Shown piece after piece: positions 12,452 to 13,882 of a stretch of DNA of 64,000 bases. The notes beneath the pieces are model-generated. The model was given only the letters and a program-made list of their open reading frames with translations, was not told the origin of the DNA and did not search any database. The translations under genes were made by a program, and so were the position numbers. The DNA comes from Escherichia coli. Its GTDB lineage: Bacteria; Pseudomonadota; Gammaproteobacteria; Enterobacterales; Enterobacteriaceae. The stretch lies in the NCBI RefSeq assembly GCF_003018115.1, contig NZ_CP027457.1; one strand, 5' to 3'. Numbering within the stretch: position 1 is the stretch's first letter; every line of letters starts with the position of its first letter.

Positions 12452-13882
12452 ATGGTTTTTCATTTTTTACCGGAAGTTACCGACGTTTTGAGCCGTTTCG
12501 TTCCTCGCATTATTCCGTTTTATTTACTCTTGCTGGCGGCAGGCGGTACAGCTAACGCACAATCTACCTTCGAGCAAAAAGCGGCAAATCCCTTTGATAA
12601 TAACAATGATGGTCTGCCGGATTTAGGCATGGCACCTGAAAATCATGATGGGGAAAAACACTTTGCTGAAATTGTGAAAGATTTCGGCGAAACCAGTATG
12701 AATGATAACGGGCTGGATACTGGCGAGCAGGCAAAAGCTTTCGCATTGGGAAAAGTCCGCGACGCGCTTAGTCAACAGGTTAATCAGCACGTAGAGTCGT
12801 GGCTATCACCGTGGGGAAATGCCAGTGTTGACGTCAAAGTGGATAATGAAGGTCATTTTACCGGCAGTCGTGGAAGCTGGTTTGTGCCGTTACAAGATAA
12901 TGATCGTTATCTCACCTGGAGCCAGCTTGGTCTTACTCAGCAGGATGATGGGCTGGTGAGCAATGTGGGCGTTGGGCAACGCTGGGCGCGCGGCAGCTGG
13001 CTGGTGGGTTATAACACTTTTTATGACAACTTGCTGGATGAAAATCTTCAGCGAGCGGGCTTTGGTGCCGAAGCGTGGGGCGAATATTTGCGACTATCGG
13101 CAAACTTTTATCAGCCGTTTGCTGCATGGCATGAACAGACAGCCACGCAGGAACAACGGATGGCGCGCGGGTACGACCTGACAGCCCGGATGCGCATGCC
13201 GTTCTATCAACACCTCAATACCAGTGTCAGCGTAGAACAGTATTTTGGTGATCGTGTTGATTTGTTTAACTCTGGTACGGGTTATCACAATCCCGTCGCG
13301 TTGAGTCTGGGATTAAATTACACCCCTGTGCCATTAGTCACTGTGACGGCCCAGCATAAACAGGGTGAAAGTGGCGAAAATCAAAATAACCTCGGACTGA
13401 ATCTTAATTACCGCTTTGGTGTACCGCTCAAAAAACAACTTTCTGCGGGCGAGGTTGCCGAAAGTCAGTCGTTACGTGGTAGTCGCTATGATAATCCGCA
13501 GCGAAATAATCTACCGACTCTTGAGTACCGACAGCGAAAAACGTTAACGGTGTTTCTGGCGACACCGCCGTGGGATCTAAAACCTGGCGAAACAGTGCCG
13601 CTGAAATTACAAATCCGCAGTCGTTACGGTATTCGGCAACTGATTTGGCAGGGCGATACGCAGATATTAAGTTTGACGCCGGGCGCACAAGCCAACAGCG
13701 CGGAGGGCTGGACGCTGATCATGCCTGACTGGCAGAACGGGGAAGGGGCGAGCAATCACTGGCGATTGTCGGTGGTGGTGGAAGATAACCAGGGGCAGCG
13801 TGTCTCCTCCAATGAGATCACGCTAACGCTTGTCGAACCGTTCGACGCATTGTCAAACGACGAACTGCGCTGGGAACCGTAA
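12452..13882 (+). CDS. ychO: invasin/intimin-like outer membrane protein YchO (start uncertain)
   Basis: 476-aa ORF with N-terminal signal-like segment (LLLLAAGGTANAQ) and beta-rich body; conserved between ychN and narL. Confidence 0.75.
   Translation: MVFHFLPEVTDVLSRFVPRIIPFYLLLLAAGGTANAQSTFEQKAANPFDNNNDGLPDLGMAPENHDGEKHFAEIVKDFGETSMNDNGLDTGEQAKAFALGKVRDALSQQVNQHVESWLSPWGNASVDVKVDNEGHFTGSRGSWFVPLQDNDRYLTWSQLGLTQQDDGLVSNVGVGQRWARGSWLVGYNTFYDNLLDENLQRAGFGAEAWGEYLRLSANFYQPFAAWHEQTATQEQRMARGYDLTARMRMPFYQHLNTSVSVEQYFGDRVDLFNSGTGYHNPVALSLGLNYTPVPLVTVTAQHKQGESGENQNNLGLNLNYRFGVPLKKQLSAGEVAESQSLRGSRYDNPQRNNLPTLEYRQRKTLTVFLATPPWDLKPGETVPLKLQIRSRYGIRQLIWQGDTQILSLTPGAQANSAEGWTLIMPDWQNGEGASNHWRLSVVVEDNQGQRVSSNEITLTLVEPFDALSNDELRWEP

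What the first reader, a model, noticed from the sequence alone, without database searches (positions are those of the whole stretch)
12452..13882. ychO: invasin/intimin-like outer membrane protein with uncertain start
476-codon frame with signal-like N-terminus and beta-rich body in a housekeeping neighbourhood. Annotations of this gene have varied in start site; the first ATG (12452) precedes a hydrophobic segment (IIPFYLLLLAAGGTANA), which argues for the long form.
Basis: inference. Interest (0 to 1): 0.25.

Follow-up and report, generated by a model that had tools for sequence, protein, structure and literature searches.

The report
ychO: known small inverse autotransporter gene

Summary
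The 476-codon frame at 12452..13882 is real. It is ychO/iatA, in the E. coli chaA-chaBC-ychN-ychO-narLX region. The protein is a minimal inverse autotransporter (type Ve). It has a Sec signal peptide and a short periplasmic segment without LysM. Its IAT_beta barrel (Pfam E=6e-103) superposes on invasin 4E1T and intimin 4E1S at TM 0.95/0.94. A pore linker and one Ig-like domain homologous to intimin D00 follow.

The ATG at 12452 is not the conserved start. It is in frame here only because of an extra T in a T-run (12463-12468). At least 69% of 5,420 complete E. coli genomes, including K-12, lack that T, and the ATG is then out of frame. Four other Escherichia lineages lack an in-frame ATG, and 15 of 17 Citrobacter loci plus Salmonella arizonae have an in-frame stop 5-6 codons upstream of the TTG. 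TTG-AGC-CGT at 12488 is invariant across Escherichia, 15 of 17 Citrobacter loci and both Salmonella loci. It gives a canonical signal peptide (MSRFVPR + hydrophobic core + ANA|Q), and RefSeq uses it (464 aa).

Whether the ATG is also used in this strain is untested. Either way the mature protein would be the same. This is already known and of low interest.

The parts
12452..13882 (+). The 476-codon ORF as flagged (first in-frame ATG to TAA)
12488..13882 (+). ychO/iatA coding sequence with the best-supported start: TTG, 464 codons plus stop
   Evidence: RefSeq CDS coordinates map to 12488. TTG-AGC-CGT is invariant across Escherichia, 15 of 17 Citrobacter loci and both Salmonella loci.
12452..12454 (+). 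Upstream ATG, in frame only in the T6 allele carried by this window. In T5 strains it opens a 12-codon ORF in another frame that ends at a TGA overlapping the TTG.
12463..12468 (+). T6 homopolymer run; T5 (or TTATT) in most E. coli and in the other Escherichia lineages. This 1-nt indel decides whether the ATG is in frame.
12488..12559 (+). Sec-type signal peptide MSRFVPRIIPFYLLLLAAGGTANA, with predicted cleavage ANA|Q
   Evidence: n-region of 7 residues with net +2, hydrophobic core KD 2.59. A34, A36 and Q37 (476-aa numbering) are invariant in the orthologue alignment. No dedicated signal-peptide predictor was available.
12560..12808 (+). N-terminal periplasmic segment of the mature protein (residues 25-107 of the 464-aa form). 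It carries the conserved NPFDNN.DGLPDLG motif and predicted helices, and has no LysM domain.
   Evidence: Motif conserved across genera. Low pLDDT. No Pfam hit other than the edge of IAT_beta.
12809..13417 (+). 12-stranded outer-membrane beta-barrel (residues ~108-310)
   Evidence: Pfam IAT_beta. Sequence hits to 4E1T at 1.3e-47 and 4E1S at 3.3e-41. AF2 pLDDT mostly above 85. Foldseek TMt 0.95/0.94, rmsd 1.7 A.
13418..13531 (+). Linker expected to run back through the barrel pore (residues 311-348; ...SLRGSRYDNPQRNNLPTLEYR)
   Evidence: Aligns to the C-terminal linker of the invasin and intimin beta-domain crystal constructs. Short helices at 314-325 in the model.
13532..13843 (+). Single Ig-like passenger domain, homologous to intimin D00 (residues ~349-452)
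   Evidence: Profile hit to 6TQD intimin D00-D0, E=2.1e-9. AF2 domain model pLDDT 82. Foldseek best hits are 6TQD chains, E=2e-5.
13844..13879 (+). Short, poorly conserved C-terminal tail
   Evidence: Low pLDDT; variable in orthologues.
12629..12631 (+). ATG of the obsolete 417-aa annotation (rejected)
   Evidence: No hydrophobic segment follows it. The Met is not conserved (Leu in P0101).
12055..12071 (+). Sigma-54 binding motif TCGGTACAGGTTTTGCA inside ychN, antisense, oriented toward ychO. A possible but unproven source of ychO transcripts.
   Evidence: Exact match in the window. Reported as ChIP-seq site IA11, 405 nt from ychO, in PMC4591121.

Best explanation
The locus is ychO (= iatA, b1220), the small inverse autotransporter (type Ve secretion protein) found in nearly all E. 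coli genomes. Its conserved translation start is the TTG at 12488, which gives a 464-aa precursor. Inferred pathway: weak initiation (TTG, no strong Shine-Dalgarno), then Sec export directed by the 24-residue signal peptide, then cleavage after Ala-Asn-Ala. The 12-stranded barrel would be inserted into the outer membrane by BAM, the linker would occupy the pore, and one D00-type Ig-like domain would be exposed on the cell surface. The 36 nt between the ATG at 12452 and the TTG are ancestrally non-coding leader. In this strain a one-T insertion in a T-run puts the upstream ATG in frame and creates the 476-codon ORF. If ribosomes also start there, the precursor only gains 12 residues on its signal peptide and the mature protein is unchanged. 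Shown here: gene identity, domain architecture, fold homology, and the comparative evidence for the start. Inferred: signal-peptide cleavage, topology, surface exposure and low expression.
For: - **Identity.** The region is 100% identical to a RefSeq E. coli record annotated ychO. NCBIfam YchO/YchP equivalog scores 803 bits against a cutoff of 508.
- **Start site.**
  - PGAP places the CDS at 12488 in all 10 records inspected.
  - TTG-AGC-CGT is invariant across Escherichia, 15 of 17 Citrobacter loci and both Salmonella loci. An in-frame stop lies 5-6 codons upstream in 15 of the 17 Citrobacter loci and in Salmonella arizonae, and 13 codons upstream in the other Escherichia lineages.
  - K-12 and other T5 strains have no start codon between that stop and the TTG.
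  - The two common T5 alleles are exact in 2,537 + 1,222 of ~5,420 genomes; the window allele is exact in 110.
  - Across about 75 loci the most likely start lies 4-13 codons before the hydrophobic core. The ATG at 12452 lies 19 codons before it.
- **Architecture.** Pfam IAT_beta E=5.8e-103. PDB sequence hits to 4E1T and 4E1S. AF2 plus Foldseek give TMt 0.95/0.94. The passenger matches intimin D00 by profile (E=2.1e-9) and by fold.
- **Literature.** IatA is 1,395 bp, present in 99% of genomes, with a short passenger (PMC6714894). Pilatti et al. restored a 141-bp signal-peptide segment, giving the 464-aa form (PMC4787180).
Against: - No experimental start-site, N-terminal or TSS data for ychO could be retrieved.
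- Neither start has a convincing Shine-Dalgarno: about -3.6 kcal/mol for both, no better than random positions. Local accessibility is similar.
- ATG is intrinsically a stronger initiator than TTG, so in this T6 strain some or most initiation could occur at 12452.
- Surface display has not been shown. Goh et al. could not detect IatA protein.
- The signal peptide was judged from simple sequence features, not with a trained predictor.
Confidence: 0.85

Rival explanations
1. One reading: in this strain translation starts mainly at the ATG at 12452, producing a 476-aa precursor with a 36-residue signal peptide.
For: The ATG is in frame in this window and in other T6 strains (O157:H7, a B-lineage strain, strains 7784 and ES1). 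ATG is a stronger start codon than TTG (general knowledge). The upstream region is AT-rich and no less accessible than the TTG region. Gene callers pick it, and 476-aa records are deposited.
Against: The frame depends on a derived 1-nt insertion that is absent from at least 69% of E. coli and from all outgroups. The resulting n-region would be unusually long (19 residues) with net charge 0. The only SD-like sequence (TAAGG) ends 2 nt before the ATG, which is too close for normal SD function (spacing rule from general knowledge). PGAP still chooses the TTG in T6 strains.
Confidence: 0.2
2. Leader-peptide coupling: in T5 strains the out-of-frame ATG opens a 12-codon upstream ORF (MVFH[Y/F]YRKLPTF) whose TGA stop overlaps the TTG start (TTGA). 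Ribosomes finishing the leader would re-initiate at the weak TTG. In T6 strains such as this window the leader is fused in frame to ychO.
For: The geometry is present in K-12, O111, four other sampled E. coli and one other Escherichia lineage. It would explain how a TTG without a good SD gets translated.
Against: No start codon is available for the leader in E. coli L092 or in Escherichia L006 and L007, and L004 has GTG. No Citrobacter locus has a comparable upstream ORF. The overlapping TGA follows automatically from TTG plus AGC. There are no expression data.
Confidence: 0.1
3. The original short annotation is right: translation starts at the ATG at 12629 and gives a 417-aa protein.
For: Such records exist (EGX08094.1; GI:449323183, cited in PMC4787180).
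Against: This form has no signal peptide: the best 10-residue hydrophobicity is 0.16 and the N-terminus is acidic. An outer-membrane barrel could not then be exported. The Met is replaced by Leu in an orthologue (P0101). The 47 upstream codons are conserved as protein across genera.
Confidence: 0.01

Closest known systems
YchO / IatA of E. coli (b1220 in K-12; EcSMS35_1920 in SMS-3-5)
   Same: It is the same gene. It sits at the same ychN-narL locus, the CDS is 1,395 bp, and the region is 95-100% identical across 5,420 genomes.
   Different: Only the allele differs: this strain carries the extra T that puts an upstream ATG in frame.
Intimin (EHEC/EPEC Eae; PDB 4E1S, 6TQD)
   Same: Homologous signal peptide-barrel-linker-D00 arrangement. 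The barrel is 35% identical with TMt 0.94, and the passenger domain is homologous to D00.
   Different: YchO has no periplasmic LysM domain, no D0-D2 Ig domains and no C-terminal lectin-like Tir-binding domain. The NCBIfam intimin model scores 186 bits against a cutoff of 1,400.
Invasin (Yersinia pseudotuberculosis InvA; PDB 4E1T)
   Same: Best-matching solved barrel: E=1.3e-47, 39% identity, TMt 0.95.
   Different: YchO lacks the D1-D5 rod and the integrin-binding superdomain, so the name 'invasin' is not a functional assignment.
SinH / IatB (Salmonella and E. coli B2 strains)
   Same: Another short inverse autotransporter. The NCBIfam SinH model aligns from near the N-terminus through the barrel (242 bits).
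   Different: The score is far below the SinH cutoff of 999. SinH is about 730 aa with a longer passenger.

Membership tests
Inverse autotransporter (type Ve; intimin/invasin family) | IAT_beta (PF11924) barrel-domain sequence signature | tested here: met
   E=5.8e-103, 344.7 bits, near-full profile coverage at positions 4-279 of 279
Inverse autotransporter (type Ve; intimin/invasin family) | 12-stranded barrel fold as in 4E1S/4E1T | tested here: met
   AF2 model, barrel pLDDT mostly above 85. Foldseek TMt 0.95/0.94, rmsd 1.7 A. This is a predicted structure, not a solved one.
Inverse autotransporter (type Ve; intimin/invasin family) | N-terminal Sec signal peptide | tested here: met
   With the TTG start: basic n-region (+2), hydrophobic core, conserved A-x-A|Q. 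Judged by sequence features only.
Inverse autotransporter (type Ve; intimin/invasin family) | Inverted order: barrel N-terminal, then pore linker, then C-terminal passenger | tested here: met
   The barrel and linker align to the crystal constructs through ...RNN..LEY. The Ig-like domain follows.
Inverse autotransporter (type Ve; intimin/invasin family) | Passenger built of Ig-like (Big/D00-type) domains | tested here: met
   There is one domain only. Profile hit to intimin D00-D0 E=2.1e-9, fold hit E=2e-5. Pfam Big_1 itself was not detected.
Inverse autotransporter (type Ve; intimin/invasin family) | Periplasmic LysM domain (present in intimin, YeeJ, IatC and IatD; optional in the family) | tested here: not met
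   No LysM hit in Pfam at E<=1 on the whole protein or at E<=10 on the N-terminal segment. Goh et al. also show LysM only in the larger members.
Inverse autotransporter (type Ve; intimin/invasin family) | BAM-dependent outer-membrane insertion and surface exposure of the passenger | not testable with these tools
   Goh et al. could not detect IatA protein (PMC6714894).
YchO/YchP family invasin (NCBIfam NF007556, equivalog) | Score above the curated cutoff over the full length | tested here: met
   803.2 bits against a cutoff of 508; profile positions 3-452 of 454
Invasin / intimin in the functional sense (receptor-binding adhesins) | C-terminal C-type lectin-like receptor-binding domain on a rod of several Ig domains | tested here: not met
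   The protein ends about 12 residues after a single Ig domain. Intimin models score 186 bits against cutoffs of 1,400-2,050. Pilatti et al. also note the absence of these domains.
Invasin / intimin in the functional sense (receptor-binding adhesins) | Mediates adhesion to or invasion of host cells | not testable with these tools
   An APEC ychO mutant showed reduced adhesion, invasion, biofilm and virulence, with pleiotropic transcriptome changes (PMC4787180). No receptor is known.

The most novel reading that the evidence does not exclude
The T5/T6 indel upstream of ychO could be a natural expression switch. In most E. coli, a 12-codon leader ORF ends in a TGA overlapping the weak TTG start, which would allow termination-reinitiation coupling. 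In roughly 30% of strains, including O157:H7 and B strains, one extra T fuses the leader's ATG in frame. Under this reading ychO would be translated from a strong ATG with an extended signal peptide, changing how much of this near-universal inverse autotransporter is made or exported.
Probability: 0.08. Interest if true: 0.35.

Novelty: already known. Interest (0 to 1): 0.1.

Why it matters
There is little new biology here. The gene, its family and its TTG start are already in RefSeq and in the literature (IatA/YchO). The practical value is for annotation. Ab initio gene callers extend ychO to the upstream ATG in strains where a homopolymer indel happens to put it in frame, and older records truncate it to 417 aa and lose the signal peptide. 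Anyone cloning or tagging ychO, or comparing its expression between K-12 and B or O157 strains, should know that the two backgrounds differ in this leader.

Tried and rejected
- **SD pairing.** Anti-SD duplex energies at each candidate start are weak for both ATG and TTG (about -3.6 kcal/mol; random positions average -2.8), so they do not discriminate.
- **mRNA accessibility.** Local accessibility is similar for both starts.
- **Promoter scan.** The sigma-70 scan of the ychN-ychO intergenic region found only one site, at the ychN start and far upstream. Nothing places a TSS between the ATG and the TTG.
- **Experimental start or TSS data.** I searched the held supplements of an N-terminomics paper, the Ribo-RET preprint, an in vitro TSS study and a Shigella TSS study. 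There was no ychO entry or no files were held.
- **Pfam on the passenger alone.** No hit. Homology to intimin D00 appeared only with a profile and a fold search.
- **Rfam.** No RNA family on either strand of 11900-14100.
- **Lipoprotein alternative.** Rejected: E. coli has no Cys near the cleavage site, and the Cys seen in some Citrobacter signal peptides is not conserved.
- **TTG inside the hydrophobic core (the 454-aa form annotated in one C. koseri record, P0085).** Rejected: it would remove the n-region and most of the h-region.
- **Salmonella L024.** The stop codon in the translation lies upstream of the conserved TTG, so this is not a pseudogene.

Full report
**Observation.** The window holds an ORF at 12452..13882 on the + strand. 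It starts with ATG, runs for 476 codons and contains the quoted hydrophobic stretch IIPFYLLLLAAGGTANA. Its neighbours are chaA, chaB, chaC and ychN upstream and narL and narX downstream. A 1.6-kb query covering the locus matches 5,422 of 5,426 complete E. coli genomes at 95-100% identity, and the feature under the match is annotated ychO, 'inverse autotransporter invasin YchO'.

**What the protein is.**
- Pfam finds one domain, IAT_beta (PF11924), at residues 76-353 of the 476-aa frame, E=5.8e-103.
- The NCBIfam equivalog 'YchO/YchP family invasin' scores 803 bits against a cutoff of 508. The intimin, SinH and other inverse-autotransporter models score far below their cutoffs.
- By sequence, residues 108-348 of the 464-aa form align to the crystallised beta-domains of invasin (4E1T, E=1.3e-47) and intimin (4E1S, E=3.3e-41). 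The alignment includes the C-terminal linker ending ...RNN..LEY.
- An AlphaFold2 model built on a 74-sequence alignment has a confident barrel. Foldseek superposes it on 4E1T and 4E1S with target-normalised TM 0.95 and 0.94 at 1.7 A.
- The last ~115 residues have no Pfam hit. A profile of that region hits the intimin D00-D0 structure 6TQD at E=2.1e-9, aligned to D00.
- A separate model of that region (pLDDT 82) has the 6TQD chains as its best fold matches.
- No LysM domain is present.

YchO is therefore a minimal inverse autotransporter: signal peptide, an ~80-residue periplasmic segment, a 12-stranded barrel, a pore linker, one D00-type Ig domain and a short tail. It lacks the Ig rod and the lectin-like receptor-binding domains that make invasin and intimin what they are. 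'Invasin' is a homology label here, not a demonstrated function.

**Literature.**
- Goh et al. (PMC6714894) describe this gene as iatA. It is 1,395 bp and complete in 99% of 126 genomes, with a short passenger modelled as an Ig/FnIII-like domain. They could not detect the protein.
- Pilatti et al. (PMC4787180) report that an APEC ychO mutant has reduced adhesion, invasion, biofilm formation and virulence, with hundreds of genes changed in expression. They explicitly restored a 141-bp signal-peptide segment missing from a 417-aa annotation, which gives the 464-aa form.

**The start codon.** Three in-frame candidates have each been used in public records of this exact sequence: ATG 12452 (476 aa), TTG 12488 (464 aa) and ATG 12629 (417 aa).

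*The 417-aa form.* It has no hydrophobic N-terminus, and its Met is not conserved.

*ATG against TTG.* The comparative evidence is clear.
- I retrieved 80 orthologous loci from species-representative genomes and walked each frame upstream.
- All four non-window Escherichia lineages, 15 of 17 Citrobacter loci and both Salmonella loci carry TTG-AGC-CGT at the position matching 12488.
- 15 of the 17 Citrobacter loci and Salmonella arizonae have an in-frame stop only 5-6 codons upstream. The other Escherichia lineages have an in-frame stop 13 codons upstream.
- None of the Escherichia or Citrobacter loci, nor Salmonella arizonae, has an in-frame ATG upstream of the hydrophobic core. Salmonella diarizonae has one.
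- In Enterobacter, Leclercia and relatives, a TTG (often directly followed by an ATG) or an ATG occupies the equivalent site. The most likely start always lies 4-13 codons before the hydrophobic core.
- The nucleotide alignment shows why the window differs: it has T6 at 12463-12468 where the outgroups have T5.
- Within E. coli, K-12 MG1655, an O111 strain and five other sampled genomes have T5 or TTATT. Their ATG is out of frame, and no start codon lies between the upstream TAA and the TTG.
- Exact-match counts give 2,537 records for the K-12 allele and 1,222 for the plain T5 allele, against 110 for the window allele, out of about 5,420. At least 69% of complete E. coli genomes cannot use the ATG.
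- T6 alleles occur in O157:H7, a B-lineage strain and others.
- PGAP annotates the TTG in every record examined, T5 or T6.
- From the TTG the signal peptide is canonical: MSRFVPR, a hydrophobic core, then ANA|Q. From the ATG the n-region would be 19 residues with net charge 0.

**What remains open.**
- Nothing here shows which codon ribosomes use in this particular T6 strain.
- Both candidates have weak SD pairing, and the TAAGG before the ATG ends only 2 nt from it.
- Accessibility is similar for the two starts.
- I found no retrievable start-site or TSS data for ychO.
- Because cleavage is predicted after ANA in either case, the mature protein would be identical. The choice affects only translation and perhaps export efficiency.
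- I put about 0.2 on the ATG being the main start in T6 strains.

**A side observation.** In T5 strains the ATG opens a 12-codon ORF in another frame whose TGA overlaps the TTG (TTGA), which is the geometry of translational coupling. That ORF has no start codon in some Escherichia and has no counterpart in Citrobacter. I treat it as probably fortuitous.

**Verdict.** This is a correctly recognised, already-characterised gene. The specific start (ATG 12452) is a strain-specific artefact of a homopolymer indel. The conserved start, already annotated in RefSeq, is the TTG at 12488. Novelty: already known. Interest: low.

Noticed in passing
window 12452-12491 (K-12: L084 3749-3788): In T5-type E. 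coli the ATG opens a 12-codon upstream ORF (MVFH[Y/F]YRKLPTF) whose TGA stop overlaps the ychO TTG start (TTGA). In this window the extra T fuses it in frame with ychO. The ORF has no start codon in L092, L006 and L007, and no Citrobacter locus has a comparable one.
   Followed up: partly
window 12055-12071 (+), inside ychN: Exact copy of the sigma-54 motif TCGGTACAGGTTTTGCA. It was reported as an intragenic, antisense ChIP-seq site 405 nt upstream of ychO in K-12 (PMC4591121) and could drive transcription toward ychO.
   Followed up: partly
window 13880-13885: The ychO stop codon (TAA, 13880-13882) directly abuts the stop codon of the convergent narL gene (CDS ends at 13883), leaving no intergenic space for terminators. 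The ychO-narL pair is listed among overlapping-transcription 'excludon' candidates in PMC12288877.
   Followed up: no
window 12560-12640 (mature residues ~10-27): The motif NPFDNN.DGLPDLG just after the signal peptide is highly conserved from Escherichia to Kosakonia and Siccibacter. It lies in a segment AlphaFold models with low confidence, and its role is unknown.
   Followed up: no
L003 (E. coli strain S7, NZ_CP107128.1) 1-3823: ychO is split by an IS66-family (ISEc23) insertion in this strain and annotated as two pseudogene fragments.
   Followed up: no
P0001 (ENA contig, 556 aa): One ychO variant carries an in-frame internal tandem duplication of 80 residues (GLDTGEQAKA...LTQQDD repeated) spanning the end of the periplasmic segment and the first barrel strands. 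It could be an assembly artefact or a real duplication.
   Followed up: no
L083 (Trabulsiella odontotermitis strain 01) ~2500-2830: The orthologue is frameshifted after about residue 335, with four stops in the passenger region, while another strain of the same species (L053) is intact.
   Followed up: no
Genome-contig scan: Among Salmonella, only subspecies arizonae and diarizonae appeared in the 80 best orthologous loci. No S. enterica subsp. enterica or S. bongori locus was returned, which suggests the gene may be absent or more divergent there.
   Followed up: no
window 9452-10639 (-), 11174-11905 (+) and 13883-14647 (-): For chaA, chaC and narL, the mechanical ORFs from the ORF listing are 29, 12 and 38 codons longer than the RefSeq CDSs (395 against 366, 243 against 231, 254 against 216 aa). 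These are further examples in this window where the longest ORF overshoots the annotated start.
   Followed up: no
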